In this document: piece after piece, positions 57,414 to 63,943 of the stretch
How positions within the stretch are numbered: position 1 is the first letter of the stretch
Layout of the letters: each line of letters begins with the position of its first letter
From: Trypanosoma brucei
Lineage: Eukaryota
Assembly (NCBI GenBank): GCA_000002445.1
Contig: CP000071.1
Span: 2,112,001 to 2,176,000 of the forward strand
Direction: 5' to 3'
Length of the DNA stretch: 64,000 nucleotides
The notes under the pieces: model-generated
The model's input: the letters and a program-made list of their open reading frames with translations, nothing else
Databases searched by the model: none
Told to the model about the DNA's origin: nothing
Program-made: the position numbers and the translations under genes

Positions 57414-57669
57414 CTTAAATAAACTGTCCAGCAAGAGAACGAAGTTTGATTACTATTTTTTTATTTTATTTTCGGTGGCAACCCGTGAACGAAGTGCGCC
57501 TTGTGAAACCGGGGAAACGCAGCCCTTCCCCTCAGTGGTAAAAATGAGGATGGCGAACGGGTATTTAACGCATTTAATCACAAACGTATCGTATGCAAAA
57601 ACACTCACAGGTGTGTGGAGAAGTTCATAAAGAAAGCTACATCAGAAAAGGGGGCGCAAAGTCGCGTGT

Positions 57670-60600
57670 GTGGTGCGCCTGCAAACCTTTTACCGCCCTT
57701 TCTTGCGTAAAAATTGTTGGCAAAAGGGTAAAGAGGGTCAAAGGTGTCGAAGACTAGTTGCACATGTTACAGACGTTGTAATAAACATGTGTGTGGGTAC
57801 AGTGCCCACACTCTCCCTTGCGTTACGTTTACCTCACGCGCATGGTTACTCACCTTTCATTTTCTCTGGCATCTACGCTCTCTCGTATACCATTAGTGAT
57901 CGTAGGACAACGAAATTGATAGGAATGCTGGACACCAATGGGACTGCAGAACTCACCGTGCACTGTGCGAGTCCGCTACAGCCCTCAAGTAACAGTCGTA
58001 ACTCGAAGCAGTTAAGCCCCATAACACCGATCGCCAGCACCATCCACTCGGCAAGCGCCAACAGTCCACTCTCTCAATGCCAGCAGAACACCGCAGAGGT
58101 TGGCATCGGGGGACCGCACTTTGCGCTTGCATTGACTGCTGTCGGGGCTGACACCGCTGCCGGGGAGGCGGTTTCCATTGCAAACGGAACATTCAGTGGC
58201 AACGGGCTCTCGGCCTACGTATCGAAATTGTCGGAAATAGTTGGTGAACCGCCATTTACAGAGGAAGAGATACTTGAAGAATTGGAAAAACTGCGCACAC
58301 GCTCACAGCTAACGTCAGCACCTTTCAACCGTCGATTATTACCCATACTTGCACGGTATCAGCTAAGAGAGAAGTGGGGGCCAGCAGCGGAGCCGTACGC
58401 CGAGCGTCTCGTCACAGATGATGGTTCAGTGGTTCCTTCATTCCTCCCAGAATTGCATCGTATTCGTGAAAGACGGCAGCAGCTGGATAAGGTGCAGAAG
58501 TGCCGCTCCTTCCACTGCTACAAAATACCACCACCACCGCTCCGACCCCAAGGAGAAACATCCACCACGCGACCACTACTGGAGGAGGAGTTAGTCGCGG
58601 CCAAACAGTTTACACGTTCTTGGCTGGGGCCTTCTCACAAAGCAACGCCTGATACCAATGATTACAAACACACTTTCAACAACGAGGGACAACAAACGCC
58701 AAGGGGGAAAAGAATCCCTGATGTGTTTTCCAGTCCGCAGACACCACAGACGCCGACAACGGAAAAAGATCACACGGCTCCGCAGCGGTTGCAAACTCCC
58801 ACCCAGATACACACGGCAATGCAGTCCAGTCGCACCAAGACTATGCTGGTTAACAGTACCATAGACATCCCAAATAATCAGGGAAACGATGCCAATGAAT
58901 CCCGTATACGAGGTATGAGTGCCAGCAGCCTGCTGGTTAACAGTACCATAGACATCCCAAATAATCAGGGAAACGATGCCAATGAATCCCGTATACGAGG
59001 TATGAGTGCCAGCAGCCTGCTGGTTAACAGTACCATAGACATCCCAAATAATCAGGGAAACGATGCCAATGAATCCCGTATACGAGGTATGAGTGCCAGC
59101 AGCCTGCTGGTTAACAGTACCATGGGCATCCCAAATAATCAGGGAAACGATGCCAATGAATCCCGTATACGAGGTATGAGTGCCAGCAGCCTGCTGGTTA
59201 ACAGTACCATAGACATCCCAAATAATCAGGGAAACGATGCCAATGAATCCCGTATACGAGGTATGAGTGCCAGCAGCCTGCTGGTTAACAGTACCATAGA
59301 CATCCCAAATAATCAGGGAAACGATGCCAATGAATCCCGTATACGAGGTATGAGTGCCAGCAGCCTGTTGGTTAACAGTACCATGGGCATCCCAAATAAT
59401 CAGAGAAACGATGCCAATGAATCCCGTATACGAGGTATGAGTGCCAGCAGCCTGTTGGTTAACAGTACCATGGGCATCCCAAATAATCAGGGAAACGATG
59501 CCAATGAATCCCGTATACGAGGTCTGAGTGCCAGCAGCCTGTTGGTTAACAGTACCATGGACATCCCAAATAATCAGGGAAACGATGCCAATGAATCCCG
59601 TATACGAGGTATGAGTGCCAGCAGCCTGTTGGTTAACAGTACCATGGGCATCCCAAATAATCAGGGAAACGATGCCAATGAATCCCGTATACGAGGTATG
59701 AGTGCCAGCAGCCTGCTGGTTAACAGTACCATAGACATCCCAAATAATCAGGGAAACGATGCCAATGAATCCCGTATACGAGGTATGAGTGCCAGCAGCC
59801 TGCTGGTTAACAGTACCATGGGCATCCCAAATAATCAGGGAAACGATGCCAATGAATCCCGTATACGAGGTCTGAGTACCAGCAGCCTGTTGGTTAACAG
59901 TACCATGGACATCCCAAATAATCAGGGAAACGATGCCAATGAATCCCGTATACGAGGTCTGAGTACCAGCAGCCTGTTGGTTAACAGTACCATAGACATC
60001 CCAAATAATCAGGGAAACGATGCCAATGAATCCCGTATACGAGGTATGAGTGCCAGCAGCCTGTTGGTTAACAGTACCATGGGCATCCCAAATAATCAGG
60101 GAAACGATGCCAATGAATCCCGTATACGAGGTATGAGTGCCAGCAGCCTGTTGGTTAACAGTACCATGGGCATCCCAAATAATCAGGGAAACGATGCCAA
60201 TGAATCCCGTATACGAGGTATGAGTGCCAGCAGCCTGCTGGTTAACAGTACCATGGGCATCCCAAATAATCAGGGAAACGATGCCAATGAATCCCGTATA
60301 CGAGGTCTGAGTGCCAGCAGCCTGCTGGTTAACAGTACCATAGACATCCCAAATAATCAGGGAAACGATGCCAATGAATCCCGTATACGAGGTCTGAGTG
60401 CCAGCAGCCTGTTGGTTAACAGTACCATGGGCATCCCAAATAATCAGGGAAACGATGCCAATGAATCCCGTATACGAGGTATGAGTGCCAGCAGCCTGTT
60501 GGTTAACAGTACCATAGACATCCCAAATAATCAGGGAAACGATGCCAATGAATCCCGTATACGAGGTCTGAGTGCCAGCAGCCTGCTGGTTAACAGTACC

Positions 60601-61254
60601 ATAGACATCCCAAATAATCAGGGAAACGATGCCAATGAATCCCGTATACGAGGTCTGAGTGCCAGCAGCCTGTTGGTTAACAGTACCATGGACATCCCAA
60701 ATAATCAGGGAAACGATGCCAATGAATCCCGTATACGAGGTCTGAGTACCAGCAGCCTGTTGGTTAACAGTACCATGGGCATCCCAAATAATCAGGGAAA
60801 CGATGCCAATGAATCCCGTATACGAGGTCTGAGTGCCAGCAGCCTGTTGGTTAACAGTACCATGGGCATCCCAAATAATCAGGGAAACGATGCCAATGAA
60901 TCCCGTATACGAGGTATGAGTGCCAGCAGCCTGTTGGTTAACAGTACCATGGACATCCCAAATAATCAGGGAAACGATGCCAATGAATCCCGTATACGAG
61001 GTCTGAGTACCAGCAGCCTGTTGGTTAACAGTACCATAGACATCCCAAATAATCAGGGAAACGATGCCAATGAATCCCGTATACGAGGTCTGAGTGCCAG
61101 CAGCCTGTTGGTTAACAGTACCATGGGCATCCCAAATAATCAGGGAAACGATGCCAATGAATCCCGTATACGAGGTCTGAGTGCCAGCAGCCTGTTGGTT
61201 AACAGTACCATGGGCATCCCAAATAATCATGGACGGAGTGCGAAAAATATTTGA
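57670..61254 (+). CDS. large repetitive protein: unique N-terminal region (about 390 aa) followed by about 27 tandem 29-aa repeats
   Basis: ORF of 1194 aa. From about nt 58846 the sequence is an 87-bp unit (LVNSTIDIPNNQGNDANESRIRGMSASSL) repeated head-to-tail in frame to about 61230, then a short unique tail (GRSAKNI*). Each unit contains an N-S-T sequon. Units differ at only a few positions (TID/TMG/TMD; GMSAS/GLSAS/GLSTS; one QRN). Confidence 0.8.
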   Translation: MVRLQTFYRPFLRKNCWQKGKEGQRCRRLVAHVTDVVINMCVGTVPTLSLALRLPHAHGYSPFIFSGIYALSYTISDRRTTKLIGMLDTNGTAELTVHCASPLQPSSNSRNSKQLSPITPIASTIHSASANSPLSQCQQNTAEVGIGGPHFALALTAVGADTAAGEAVSIANGTFSGNGLSAYVSKLSEIVGEPPFTEEEILEELEKLRTRSQLTSAPFNRRLLPILARYQLREKWGPAAEPYAERLVTDDGSVVPSFLPELHRIRERRQQLDKVQKCRSFHCYKIPPPPLRPQGETSTTRPLLEEELVAAKQFTRSWLGPSHKATPDTNDYKHTFNNEGQQTPRGKRIPDVFSSPQTPQTPTTEKDHTAPQRLQTPTQIHTAMQSSRTKTMLVNSTIDIPNNQGNDANESRIRGMSASSLLVNSTIDIPNNQGNDANESRIRGMSASSLLVNSTIDIPNNQGNDANESRIRGMSASSLLVNSTMGIPNNQGNDANESRIRGMSASSLLVNSTIDIPNNQGNDANESRIRGMSASSLLVNSTIDIPNNQGNDANESRIRGMSASSLLVNSTMGIPNNQRNDANESRIRGMSASSLLVNSTMGIPNNQGNDANESRIRGLSASSLLVNSTMDIPNNQGNDANESRIRGMSASSLLVNSTMGIPNNQGNDANESRIRGMSASSLLVNSTIDIPNNQGNDANESRIRGMSASSLLVNSTMGIPNNQGNDANESRIRGLSTSSLLVNSTMDIPNNQGNDANESRIRGLSTSSLLVNSTIDIPNNQGNDANESRIRGMSASSLLVNSTMGIPNNQGNDANESRIRGMSASSLLVNSTMGIPNNQGNDANESRIRGMSASSLLVNSTMGIPNNQGNDANESRIRGLSASSLLVNSTIDIPNNQGNDANESRIRGLSASSLLVNSTMGIPNNQGNDANESRIRGMSASSLLVNSTIDIPNNQGNDANESRIRGLSASSLLVNSTIDIPNNQGNDANESRIRGLSASSLLVNSTMDIPNNQGNDANESRIRGLSTSSLLVNSTMGIPNNQGNDANESRIRGLSASSLLVNSTMGIPNNQGNDANESRIRGMSASSLLVNSTMDIPNNQGNDANESRIRGLSTSSLLVNSTIDIPNNQGNDANESRIRGLSASSLLVNSTMGIPNNQGNDANESRIRGLSASSLLVNSTMGIPNNHGRSAKNI
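58846..61230 (+). repeat. 87-bp tandem repeat array, about 27 copies, >95% identical, in-frame within the 57670..61254 CDS
   Basis: Direct reading: CTGGTTAACAGTACC starts at 58846 and again at 58933 (period 87) and continues to about 61230. Variants are limited to a few codons. Confidence 0.95.
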
Positions 61255-62410
61255 AAAGGGGCTAGTTTTGCCTCATTTTCTCAAGTTACATTTTTATTTA
61301 AGTGGGATGCCCTTAAATTTTTCAGTGGTTACGCTCTTTCGTTTCCTAGTGTGGCCTTTTGTGGCGTTGTCTTTTATTGGAGATTTTAACGTTCGAGGAT
61401 GGCTGCGGGGCCTCCAGTTGTTACTAGCTTCTGTTGAGAGTGATTGTTCTTTTTCCTTTCTCTCTACATACTTTACATGAAGAAAGCTGCTATGTTTCTG
61501 TTTTCTAACCATATTTTCCTCTTGTTGATATATTTGTTACAGTCGTTGCTACTGTACGCACTTAAATTTTTTACTCAGATGAATTTCCGTCGTCATTATT
61601 AATATTATTCCTACTTGTCCATTTCACTGCTAAGGTGAGTGTTAAATAGAGTTGTGTACATATCTGGCATTAACATGGTGTCCAAACCAAGATAAATTGA
61701 AACGTAGTCAACTTATTTTTTTTTTTTCAAACATTTTAGAATGTGCGCTCGGGTGTCGTGGGGATCTTTTCACGCTATTTGAGGTTGATGATTGTTACTT
61801 GGATATACTCGAAATTGAACTTTAAGTCACGGCCATCATTCTTGTGGGGACACACGCTGGTTGGCAGTTGCATTTTCTTACGGGAAAGGTAGGGAGGGTA
61901 AAGCAAAGCAAAACTAAAAGTGTGGAGGAGGGGTCCTGCACTTATTTATTGACGGACTAATTTGTCACGTTTACTTGACGAATTATTTTCCCAGGGGAAA
62001 GAGGTGCTTTGGAAGCTGCTGCAACAAAAGTAAAGGAGGGACAGTGGCGCTCGCGCTGCCATCCCCGATGGGGAATATTCCAATAATTGCGCGTGCATCC
62101 GCATCCTTTTCTAGTGTCTGACCGTGTGATTGCCGGCTTTATTTTTTCTTTTTCATCCACGCTTCTCACCTCCTTCGTTTCTTGGCGTCACCACCGCGGT
62201 TATTGTTATTGATGTCATTGGATTTTTGCGGAAGTTTGCTGCTTTCTTTTTCGTTCCGCCTGTTTATGTATCCTACTCTCGTTGGCTTTGTTTGATCCTA
62301 ATCACAGTCCACAGGGGGTTGCCCAGGTGAAGTAACGTAAGTACTTAGTGGAGGTGCTTTAGTGAACAAGAAGATAAATAGAAAAAGGTGCGGGAGAGGT
62401 AGAGAGGGAA

Positions 62411-63943
62411 ATGCCCCAAACGGTTCAGAAGCGACAAACACACGGAAGGAGCCGGCGTGGTTACGATTTTGTCCTTGAAGGCGTCCCTATGTACGATTCA
62501 CCGGACATAAGTAGTGACAGCAGTGACATAGAGCGTACACGCACCATGGCACCACCCCATGGACAAAATTGGGGCCCAGCCGCGTATCCTAAACCATCAG
62601 CAGCGGGTGCGGTAGCTCCACCGTACCGCCACCAGAAACAACAACAACAACAGCAGCAACAGCAGCAAGAACATGCCCGGCAACAACTACTCTTGCAGCA
62701 AAAGTGGTTGGAACAACAACAGGCGGCATTCCACCAACGACAGCAGGAGTTGTCTCGTGCAGAATATCAACGATCTCACAAAACACAACAGCAAAGCCAA
62801 CAGTCATCCCACAACCACACAGAAACGCGCGATGCACGCAGAACTATCATGGGCGACTCCACGGGACGCGGCAGCCGCGAACGCTGCCCGCCAGTGGATG
62901 ATATTGACTACGTAAAATACTTCCCGGAGAGGGGGCCACGCGTAATGGAATACACGTCACCTGGGTTCAATACCAACCCCTCCACCACCGTAGCCCAACA
63001 CATTCAAAGTGGCCACAATGCACAGTTCACCACCATGCGGCCTTCGGCCCGTAGCCAGCAGCATTTGGAATGTCCCGGCAACCACAACAACACCGTGGTG
63101 GGAGCCTACGGGACGGGGGAGACAGCTGATACGAGAAATACGGGGGCCAGGGAGACGGCAATCGTTGGTGGAGGCGTACATTACGGGGCCCAGAGCTTAC
63201 AAGCCACCGGCAAGTGCGCGGCCAGGTATGCAAGTACGCTTTATTTGGAAAATGACCATCCGTCAGCTCAAGTGCCCAACGGGTACACCGTAGAGATGGG
63301 AAACTCAGGTCTTTTCACTCTAGCTAACTATCCTGATGCGGACAAGGGGGCCGTAACGAACGAAAACCGCTTCAGCGGCGGAGCCGTCAAGCCGCGGTGG
63401 ACATCTGTGAGCACCACCCCCATGGAATGTCGTACACCACCTTCAGTTGCCACTGCACCGCAGTACAGGAACACAGCAGCTTGTGATTCTACAGGCGGAG
63501 ATATCTTCTCTGGGGATTATGAATTTATGCCTGTTGAATTGGGGCAGTGTGACTTCCGCACCCTCCACGCGGTTACCCTCTCTACAGAACCCACACCACC
63601 CTTCACGCCGTCGCACGCTAGTGTGGAATCGAGAGGCGGAAAAAGGAACGCCCTATTGCCCCCAGTGGGGCACAGAGACTTATCGTATTTTGAATCATTG
63701 CCACAGAAGCAACAAAAGCAGCAGAGACGAACATCTAAACAGGGAGATGTGCAAGACGTTAGTGAAGCATCTCTCCCATTCGCGGTACCACAGGAGTACC
63801 AGTATTTAAACAATGACTTGACCGATCCAAATTCGAGTCTTCCGGCCCCTGCTATGTCGGTTGAAACCACACATAAGTCTGAGAAGGCACAAACGCGGAA
63901 GGTTATCGACTCGTCCAATCCCCGACGGTGGATTGTGCTGTAG
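62411..63943 (+). CDS. hypothetical Gln-rich low-complexity protein
   Basis: 510-aa ORF with a poly-Q/QQ-rich segment (QKQQQQQQQQQQEHARQQLLLQQKWLEQQQ) from CAG/CAA repeats at about 62640-62720, Ser/Thr/Pro-rich flanks, and the same orientation as neighbours. Confidence 0.6.
   Translation: MPQTVQKRQTHGRSRRGYDFVLEGVPMYDSPDISSDSSDIERTRTMAPPHGQNWGPAAYPKPSAAGAVAPPYRHQKQQQQQQQQQQEHARQQLLLQQKWLEQQQAAFHQRQQELSRAEYQRSHKTQQQSQQSSHNHTETRDARRTIMGDSTGRGSRERCPPVDDIDYVKYFPERGPRVMEYTSPGFNTNPSTTVAQHIQSGHNAQFTTMRPSARSQQHLECPGNHNNTVVGAYGTGETADTRNTGARETAIVGGGVHYGAQSLQATGKCAARYASTLYLENDHPSAQVPNGYTVEMGNSGLFTLANYPDADKGAVTNENRFSGGAVKPRWTSVSTTPMECRTPPSVATAPQYRNTAACDSTGGDIFSGDYEFMPVELGQCDFRTLHAVTLSTEPTPPFTPSHASVESRGGKRNALLPPVGHRDLSYFESLPQKQQKQQRRTSKQGDVQDVSEASLPFAVPQEYQYLNNDLTDPNSSLPAPAMSVETTHKSEKAQTRKVIDSSNPRRWIVL

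What the first reader, a model, noticed from the sequence alone, without database searches (positions are those of the whole stretch)
57670..61254. Protein with about 27 near-perfect 29-aa tandem repeats, each carrying an N-S-T sequon
The 3' 2.4 kb of this gene is an 87-bp unit repeated about 27 times with over 95% identity. Variation is confined to three codon positions (I/M, D/G, M/L, A/T), giving a small set of repeat alleles (TID, TMG, TMD; GMSAS, GLSAS, GLSTS). Near-identical repeats like this imply ongoing concerted evolution, and copy number is almost certainly collapsed or uncertain in short-read assemblies. In trypanosomatids, tandem-repeat proteins are typically immunodominant B-cell antigens or cytoskeleton (microtubule)-associated proteins. 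The repeat is polar (N/S/Q/D/R-rich) with one N-x-T sequon per unit. The opposite strand also reads open through the repeats (879-aa - strand ORF), which is a compositional artefact but a trap for gene callers.
Basis: seen in the sequence. Interest (0 to 1): 0.6.

Follow-up and report, generated by a model that had tools for sequence, protein, structure and literature searches.

The report
Repeat array of flagella-connector protein FCP3
The 27-copy, 29-amino-acid repeat is real, but it is the tail of an already named Trypanosoma brucei protein, FCP3, a cytoskeletal part of the junction that ties the new flagellum to the old one, so the finding is a known gene with ordinary repeat dynamics.

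Summary
An 87-bp unit is repeated 27.4 times at window 58846..61233, with 97% identity and no indels, inside a + strand ORF.

The window is T. brucei brucei TREU927 chromosome 8. The gene lies between Tb927.8.7530 (enoyl-CoA isomerase) and Tb927.8.7550, so it is Tb927.8.7540. That gene is FCP3, published as a component of zone 4 of the flagella connector, the dense layer under the old-flagellum membrane.

The protein has no signal peptide or membrane segment, so the N-S-T sequons are very unlikely to be glycosylated. I found no evidence that it is an antigen.

Copy number differs between assemblies:
- TREU927: 27.4 units.
- T. b. equiperdum: 23.4 units.
- T. b. gambiense: at least 38 units, with an assembly gap inside the array.

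Orthologues across trypanosomatids share a conserved helical N-domain. Most also carry their own tandem arrays, with units of 18 to 48 aa, and a C-terminal domain that T. brucei FCP3 lacks. A short motif of that C-terminal domain opens the downstream gene Tb927.8.7550.

The role of the array itself is untested.

Verdict: already known, low interest.

The parts
57925..61254 (+). Coding sequence of Tb927.8.7540 (FCP3), 1109 aa plus stop: a unique N-terminal 307 aa followed by the repeat array.
   Evidence: ORF. Start supported by the alignment with T. congolense and by the T. b. gambiense gene model, which starts at the same ATG. Gene identity: upstream gene is Tb927.8.7530 (PMC2212663 supplement) and downstream gene is Tb927.8.7550. 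FCP3 = Tb927.8.7540 (PMC6771564).
57670..57924 (+). In-frame upstream extension of the mechanical ORF (GTG start, with an internal ATG at 57787). Probably 5' UTR rather than coding sequence.
   Evidence: Not matched by the T. congolense or T. theileri proteins. The gambiense model starts downstream of it. Neither tested full-length translation, from the ATG at 57787 or from the ATG at 57925, is in the protein collection.
58195..58560 (+). Conserved, kinetoplastid-specific helical N-domain (core PFTEEEILEELEKLR...FNRRLLPILARY.LREKWG...YAERL...SFLPEL.RIRERR).
58846..61194 (+). 27 full 87-bp units. The consensus unit encodes LVNSTMDIPNNQGNDANESRIRGMSASSL.
61195..61254 (+). Truncated 28th unit (LVNSTMGIPNNH), then the unique tail GRSAKNI and the TGA stop. 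The same tail is found in T. b. gambiense and T. b. equiperdum.
58591..61230 (-). 879-aa antisense ORF. It is a by-product of a unit that has no stop codon in that frame, not a gene.
   Evidence: All 21 other ORFs of at least 200 aa in the window are on the + strand.
61255..62410 (.). 3' UTR and intergenic spacer between FCP3 and Tb927.8.7550. It is T-rich with no detectable remnant of coding sequence.
   Evidence: Sequence. tblastn with orthologues finds nothing significant here.
62411..63943 (+). Tb927.8.7550. Its residues 13-41 (window 62447..62533, RSRRGYDFVLEGVPMYDSPDISSDSSDIE) resemble the start of the C-terminal domain found in FCP3-family orthologues.
   Evidence: Exact match to the named protein. 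hhalign of C-domain profile A2 against this protein: E 4.1e-5, probability 70%, 29 columns. BLASTP against T. vivax: E 9e-4. The T. congolense orthologue keeps the motif.

Best explanation
The feature is the C-terminal repeat array of Tb927.8.7540, or FCP3 (flagella connector protein 3), in T. brucei brucei TREU927 chromosome 8.

Shown here:
- A 1109-aa cytosolic-type protein with no signal peptide and no membrane segment.
- About 300 unique residues that contain a roughly 90-aa conserved helical domain, found in 12 trypanosomatid or unnamed orthologues.
- Then 27.4 near-identical 29-aa polar units, running almost to the stop codon.

From the literature:
- FCP3 marks zone 4 of the flagella connector, the electron-dense layer under the old-flagellum membrane.
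- It stays on detergent-extracted cytoskeletons.
- It persists for about 11 minutes after cytokinesis.
- Its depletion is not among those reported to sever the connection.

Inferred:
- The array is kept homogeneous by unequal recombination or gene conversion, and its length drifts (23 to at least 38 units among Trypanozoon assemblies).
- The conserved N-domain is the specific docking module.
- The array acts as a length-tolerant, multivalent polar scaffold or spacer that adds mass and interaction sites to the dense plaque. I give this about 35% likelihood.
- The N-x-S/T sequons are a by-product of the N/S/T-rich composition and are not glycosylated.
For: Identity of the gene:
- Neighbouring ORFs are exact matches to TREU927 proteins AAZ13514-16 and AAZ13518, the last named Tb927.8.7550.
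- Enoyl-CoA isomerase is Tb927.8.7530, directly followed by 7550 in the paralogue list (PMC2212663 supplement).
- Tb927.8.7540 is FCP3 (PMC6771564).
- FCP3 is assigned to zone 4 (PMC11555346).

Array.

No membrane or signal segment.

Family:
- Profile search and species names.
- Conserved N-domain with a confident helical model.
- Arrays in orthologues with periods of 18, 24, 25, 40 and 48 aa, and 29 aa in T. theileri.

Copy-number differences between assemblies. In L. braziliensis assemblies the count ranges from about 5 to 25 units.

Synteny with T. vivax.
Against: - The deposited Tb927.8.7540 protein sequence could not be retrieved for a direct comparison. The exact translations are not in the collection, so the identity rests on position and numbering.
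- The original FCP3 paper (Varga et al. 2017) is not held.
- No experiment addresses the array's role.
- FCP3 is not among the connector proteins whose depletion gave a phenotype (PMC9826329).
- The T. congolense and T. vivax orthologues have no array, so the array is dispensable for whatever the family does in those species.
- Similarity of the unit between species is weak (z about 2). Common descent of the arrays is therefore suggested, not proven.
Confidence: 0.75

Rival explanations
1. The array folds into a rigid beta-solenoid rod, one 29-residue coil per unit, which forms the ordered dense layer of zone 4.
For: AlphaFold2 on 10 units gives mean pLDDT 80.6 and pTM 0.82, all-beta, with the same strand pattern in every unit. 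The nearest PDB folds are beta-helix proteins such as tailspikes, AlgE epimerases and curli. The unit has alternating hydrophobic positions (V-x-S-x-I-x-I) and an N/G-rich stretch that could form turns.
Against: AlphaFold2 gives confident beta-solenoids for 41% of random perfect repeats (PMC11795689). Foldseek matches are weak, with best E 0.03 and TM no higher than 0.31. Only about 7 of 29 residues are hydrophobic, and charge-hydropathy sits on the order/disorder boundary. Orthologue units vary from 18 to 48 aa with different composition.
Confidence: 0.2
2. The repeat is an immunodominant B-cell antigen of the kind common among trypanosomatid tandem-repeat proteins.
For: General precedent only (my own knowledge of repeat antigens such as Leishmania K39 or GM6). 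High copy number and a hydrophilic unit.
Against: The protein sits inside the flagellum, in one small structure of the procyclic insect form. Bloodstream forms use a groove that has limited protein overlap with the connector, and FCP3 is not among the 13 groove proteins (PMC9826329). Neither the gene id nor the peptide appears in any antigen paper in the searchable library.
Confidence: 0.07
3. It is a secreted or surface mucin-like protein whose sequons (two per unit, about 55 in all) carry N-glycans.
For: N-S-T and N-E-S in every unit. N-x-T is also present in the T. theileri and Angomonas units.
Against: No signal peptide or transmembrane segment from either candidate ATG. The published location is the cytoplasmic face, under the flagellar membrane. 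The Leishmania units lack the sequon.
Confidence: 0.03
4. The array is an assembly artefact, and the real gene has far fewer copies.
For: Repeat arrays are hard to assemble. The gambiense array contains a 100-N gap and is nearly one haplotype. The equiperdum array has 1-bp indels.
Against: Three independent assemblies all carry at least 23 units with the same 5' junction and the same 3' tail. The TREU927 units show a structured set of linked variants rather than noise.
Confidence: 0.04

Closest known systems
FCP3 (Tb927.8.7540), flagella connector protein 3 of T. brucei (Varga et al. 2017, as cited in PMC6771564 and PMC11555346)
   Same: Same genomic position and gene number, so this is that gene. 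It is a cytoskeleton-associated flagellar protein.
   Different: Nothing differs in identity. The papers I could read do not describe the repeat architecture, the family-wide N- and C-domains, or the copy-number differences.
Other T. brucei cytoskeletal proteins with near-identical tandem repeats: MARPs (38-aa units), FAZ1, GM6, and TAC protein p197. These are recalled from my own knowledge.
   Same: Long arrays of near-identical units in structural cytoskeletal proteins, homogenised within a genome and prone to assembly collapse.
   Different: Unit length and sequence are unrelated. The FCP3 unit is polar, N/S-rich, with net charge -1, and gives no sequence-based reason to expect microtubule binding. 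No Pfam match.
FCP3-family orthologues in Leishmania, Leptomonas, Novymonas, Angomonas, T. theileri and T. vivax (all annotated as hypothetical proteins)
   Same: Conserved helical N-domain. Most have a tandem array downstream of it. T. vivax shares synteny after the HAD, M1 peptidase and ECH genes.
   Different: Orthologues are up to 2300 aa and end in a conserved C-terminal domain (VPGVPYVDSPD...WA.RGL.WQRQE) that T. brucei FCP3 lacks. Unit periods differ (18-48 aa). [quoted passage not shown] The flagella connector is described as present only in T. brucei (PMC6529878), so orthologues must act elsewhere.
Beta-solenoid repeat proteins (phage tailspikes, AlgE epimerases, curli CsgA)
   Same: Only the AlphaFold2 model's overall class.
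   Different: Weak structural scores and no sequence relation, and the model type is a known AlphaFold2 artefact for perfect repeats (PMC11795689).

Membership tests
Tb927.8.7540 / FCP3 | [quoted passage not shown] | tested here: met
   Exact protein matches for both neighbours. Locus tags come and the PMC2212663 supplement. Protein accessions AAZ13516 and AAZ13518 leave exactly one in between.
Tb927.8.7540 / FCP3 | Protein sequence identical to the deposited Tb927.8.7540 product. | tested here: inconclusive
   Translations from the ATGs at 57925 and 57787 are not in the collection. No T. brucei copy was returned by any protein search.
Tb927.8.7540 / FCP3 | Localises to the old-flagellum side (zone 4) of the flagella connector. 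| not testable with these tools
   Literature only: PMC6771564 and PMC11555346.
Trypanosomatid FCP3-like family | Conserved helical N-domain (PFTEE..LE.LR.RS..T..PFN...LPILA.Y.LR.K.G). | tested here: met
   Profile hits with E from 1e-20 to 1e-142 for the 12 listed orthologues with E<=1e-20. 16 invariant columns.
Trypanosomatid FCP3-like family | Conserved C-terminal domain (VPGVPYVDSPD...WA.RGL.WQRQE). | tested here: not met
   The gene stops 7 codons after the array. tblastn with orthologues finds no such segment in 57925..61254. A 29-column match lies instead at the N-terminus of Tb927.8.7550.
N-glycosylated secretory or surface repeat protein | Signal peptide or membrane anchor giving access to the ER lumen. 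| tested here: not met
   Maximum 19-residue Kyte-Doolittle hydropathy is 1.22 from either ATG.
Tandem-repeat B-cell antigens of trypanosomatids | Recognition by sera of infected hosts. | not testable with these tools
   No paper in the library links the gene id or the peptide to serology.
Beta-solenoid fold | One regular coil of beta-strands per unit, supported by more than one method. | tested here: inconclusive
   The AlphaFold2 model is confident, but the method is biased for perfect repeats, and Foldseek gives E no better than 0.03.
Known repeat domain families (LRR, pentapeptide and others in Pfam) | Match to a curated repeat profile. | tested here: not met
   No Pfam family at E<=0.01 for the N-terminal part plus three units, and none in orthologues at E<=0.1.

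The most novel reading that the evidence does not exclude
An ancient pan-trypanosomatid flagellar gene (N-domain, repeat array, C-domain) was split in the common ancestor of T. brucei and T. congolense. FCP3 kept the N-domain, and in T. brucei also the array. The downstream gene Tb927.8.7550 descends from the C-terminal part and still works with FCP3 at the flagella connector, which would make it an unrecognised connector component. On this reading the retained and expanded array is what adapts the protein to the T. brucei-specific connector plaque.
Probability: 0.15. Interest if true: 0.45.

Novelty: already known. Interest (0 to 1): 0.22.

Why it matters
The gene is already named and localised, so the finding adds no new kind of element.

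Three points are of practical use:
- The array makes this locus unreliable in assemblies. It is gapped and split into two gene models in T. b. gambiense, and frameshifted and unannotated in T. b. equiperdum.
- The antisense ORF is a trap for gene callers.
- The sequons should not be read as glycosylation sites.

The comparative picture gives a small, testable lead on how a T. brucei-specific structure was built from older parts. It consists of a conserved N-domain family across trypanosomatids, arrays with changing unit length, loss of the C-domain in T. brucei, and a matching motif in the next gene.

Tried and rejected
- Peptide search in the literature: no hits.
- Varga et al. 2017 is not held, by PMC id or by DOI.
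- Supplements of the TrypTag paper and of PMC11555346 do not contain the gene ids.
- A second word-indexed homology search with the alignment returned only the same two proteins.
- The AlphaFold database library was not available.
- The sigma-70 promoter and terminator scan is irrelevant for a trypanosome and was ignored.
- Test for common descent of the repeat units between species: only marginal scores for T. brucei against T. theileri or Angomonas (z 2.2), and none against Leishmania. I do not claim unit homology.
- Test for neighbour similarity within the array: weak (permutation p 0.07).
- The idea that Tb927.8.7550 is simply the cut-off C-terminus is weakened by motif order. NPRRWI lies at the C-terminus of 7550 but upstream of the GVP motif in T. 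vivax.
Full report
**Observation**

Tandem Repeats Finder reports a single array at window 58847..61233, with period 87, 27.4 copies, 97% matches and no indels. It is the only strong tandem repeat in the 64-kb window.

In codon register there are 27 full units from 58846 to 61194. A 28th unit breaks off after LVNSTMGIPNNH and runs into the tail GRSAKNI and a stop at 61252..61254.

Variation is limited to six nucleotide sites:
- silent C/T in the first Leu codon;
- I/M at codon 6;
- D/G at codon 7;
- one G/R at codon 13;
- M/L at codon 24;
- A/T at codon 26.

Mean pairwise unit identity is 97.3%. Each unit carries two sequons, N-S-T and N-E-S.

The 879-aa antisense ORF is there. It exists only because the unit lacks stops in that frame; just + frame 0 and - frame 0 are open through the array.

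**Where the window comes from and which gene this is**

All but one of the 22 ORFs of at least 200 aa lie on the + strand, as in a trypanosomatid polycistron. The exception is the antisense ORF in the array.

Four neighbouring ORFs are exact matches to T. brucei brucei TREU927 chromosome 8 proteins:
- p-nitrophenylphosphatase (AAZ13514);
- aminopeptidase (AAZ13515);
- the downstream ORF 62411..63943, named Tb927.8.7550 (AAZ13518).

The supplement of Jackson 2007 lists the isomerase as Tb927.8.7530, directly followed by Tb927.8.7550 among retained paralogues of the chromosome 4/8 duplication (PMC2212663). The one gene between them is therefore Tb927.8.7540.

[quoted passage not shown] The exact protein could not be found in the collection for a direct check, so the assignment rests on position and numbering.

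**What is known about FCP3**

- eYFP::FCP3 is seen on detergent-extracted cytoskeletons at the flagella connector from the start of new-flagellum growth.
- After cytokinesis it remains for about 11 minutes halfway along the old flagellum (PMC6771564).
- It is used as the marker of zone 4, the electron-dense layer beneath the old-flagellum membrane that links to the filamentous zone 5 (PMC11555346).
- Depletion of FCP1, FCP2, FCP4 and FC1 severs the connection prematurely. FCP3 is not on that list (PMC9826329).
- The connector is described as present only in T. brucei (PMC6529878).
- Bloodstream forms use a groove that shares few proteins with the connector.

**Gene model**

The listed ORF start at 57670 is a mechanical GTG. 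The T. congolense orthologue aligns from the ATG at 57925, and the T. b. gambiense gene model begins at the same ATG. The protein is then 1109 aa.

It has no hydrophobic segment that could act as a signal peptide or membrane anchor. The maximum 19-residue hydropathy is 1.22 from either candidate ATG. Together with the sub-membrane location, this makes N-glycosylation of the sequons very unlikely.

**Family**

A profile of the unique region found 16 proteins. Twelve are orthologues matching the N-domain:
- T. congolense, T. theileri and T. vivax (two paralogues);
- several Leishmania species;
- Leptomonas seymouri and L. pyrrhocoris;
- Novymonas and Angomonas;
- one unnamed assembly protein.

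A 13th protein, also unnamed, matches the same region more weakly (E 8e-7). The last three hits are a second, weaker T. vivax match and two unrelated repeat proteins.

Most orthologues also have a tandem array downstream of the N-domain, with their own unit:

| Species | Unit length (aa) | Copies |
|---|---|---|
| L. braziliensis | 24 | 21-25 |
| L. mexicana | 40 | 8 |
| L. martiniquensis | 40 | 7.5 |
| Novymonas | 25 | 12 |
| Angomonas | 18 | 23 |
| Leptomonas pyrrhocoris | 48 | 1.6 |

In T. theileri the gene is broken by assembly gaps, but the islands between the gaps carry 87-bp units of 29 aa, the same period as in T. brucei.

Similarity between unit sequences is marginal: z about 2 for T. 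brucei against T. theileri or Angomonas, and none against Leishmania. I treat shared ancestry of the arrays as likely but unproven.

T. vivax, in two assemblies, and T. congolense have no array.

**Concerted evolution and copy number**

The contrast between 97% identity within the genome and near-complete divergence between species fits homogenisation by unequal recombination or gene conversion.

| Assembly | Array |
|---|---|
| TREU927 | 27 full units, diverse variant combinations |
| T. b. gambiense DAL972 | 17.4 units, a 100-N gap, then 21.3 units; nearly all one haplotype; annotated as two gene models |
| T. b. equiperdum | 23.4 units with 1-bp indels that break the frame; left unannotated |

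The 5' junction and the 3' tail are the same in all three. L. braziliensis assemblies likewise range from about 5 to 25 units. Whether each difference is biological or technical needs spanning reads.

**Structure of the array**

AlphaFold2 on 10 units gives a confident all-beta, solenoid-like model (pLDDT 80.6, pTM 0.82). Its nearest PDB folds are beta-helix proteins, with weak scores.

This cannot be taken at face value. Composition places the unit on the order/disorder boundary.

**C-terminal domain and the next gene**

Orthologues end in a conserved domain, VPGVPYVDSPD...WA.RGL.WQRQE. T. brucei FCP3 stops seven codons after the array and lacks it.

The N-terminus of the downstream gene Tb927.8.7550 (RSRRGYDFVLEGVPMYDSPDISS) matches the start of that domain:
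- hhalign E 4.1e-5, probability 70%, 29 columns;
- BLASTP against T. vivax, E 9e-4;
- weaker colinear matches to L. mexicana.

T. congolense has the same two-gene layout, and its 516-aa downstream ORF is a clear orthologue of 7550 (E 6e-34). In T. vivax the syntenic slot between the ECH and CorA genes holds one gene carrying both the N-domain and the motifs of 7550.

This suggests a gene split in the T. brucei/T. congolense lineage. The order of two short motifs does not fit a simple split, so I rate it as a lead only.

**Verdict**

The object is an already named and localised gene, the sequon point does not hold, and the antigen idea has no support. What remains unknown is what the array does. 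My best guess is a length-tolerant polar scaffold or spacer in the zone-4 plaque, docked through the conserved N-domain. That guess is inference.

Noticed in passing
window 62411..63943; L002 1744..3294: Tb927.8.7550 is labelled 'T. brucei spp.-specific protein', but it has a full-length orthologue directly downstream of the FCP3 orthologue in T. congolense (BLASTP E 6e-34). It also has a chromosome 4 paralogue, Tb927.4.4900 (PMC2212663).
   Followed up: yes
window 62447..62533: The N-terminus of Tb927.8.7550 carries the motif GVPMYDSPDISS, which opens the conserved C-terminal domain of FCP3-family orthologues. This may be a remnant of a gene split. The order of this motif and the NPRRWI motif does not fit a simple split.
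   Followed up: partly
L005 4471..8844 (T. b. gambiense DAL972, FN554971.1): The FCP3 array contains a 100-N assembly gap, and the gene is annotated as two models of 799 and 624 aa. The units are almost all one haplotype, which may reflect a collapsed consensus.
   Followed up: partly
L006 5924..8850 (T. b. equiperdum, CM010675.1): The array has several 85- and 86-bp units (1-bp deletions) that break the reading frame after 665 aa. No gene is annotated between the aminopeptidase and the 7550 orthologue, so the enoyl-CoA isomerase gene also appears to be missing from the annotation.
   Followed up: partly
L001 10001..14043 (T. theileri, NBCO01000026.1): The orthologue is cut by four N gaps. The C-terminal domain is split between two frames (VPFVESPD in one, WVRRGLMWQREE in another). 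This is probably an assembly frameshift.
   Followed up: no
L002 27..708 (T. congolense): The orthologue ends without any repeat. The copies of it (TCIL3000_8_7790, TCIL3000_8_7930 and the copy on this WGS contig) have different C-terminal ends. On the contig, the 7930-type end reads in an overlapping second frame downstream of a G-rich run. Jackson 2007 notes that such T. congolense duplicates are probably assembly artefacts.
   Followed up: partly
window 57540..57924: There are upstream ATGs in the probable 5' UTR, including a short upstream ORF at about 57545 and an in-frame ATG at 57787. A polypyrimidine tract at about 57445..57473 is a candidate signal for trans-splicing.
   Followed up: no
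whole window: The window lies in the chromosome 8 copy of the chromosome 4/8 duplication. On chromosome 4 the isomerase and 7550 paralogues have adjacent gene numbers (4910, 4900), so FCP3 seems to be a singleton with no chromosome 4 copy.
   Followed up: partly
window 62630..62670: Tb927.8.7550 has a run of about 12 glutamines within a Q-rich region. The T. congolense orthologue has a shorter one.
   Followed up: no
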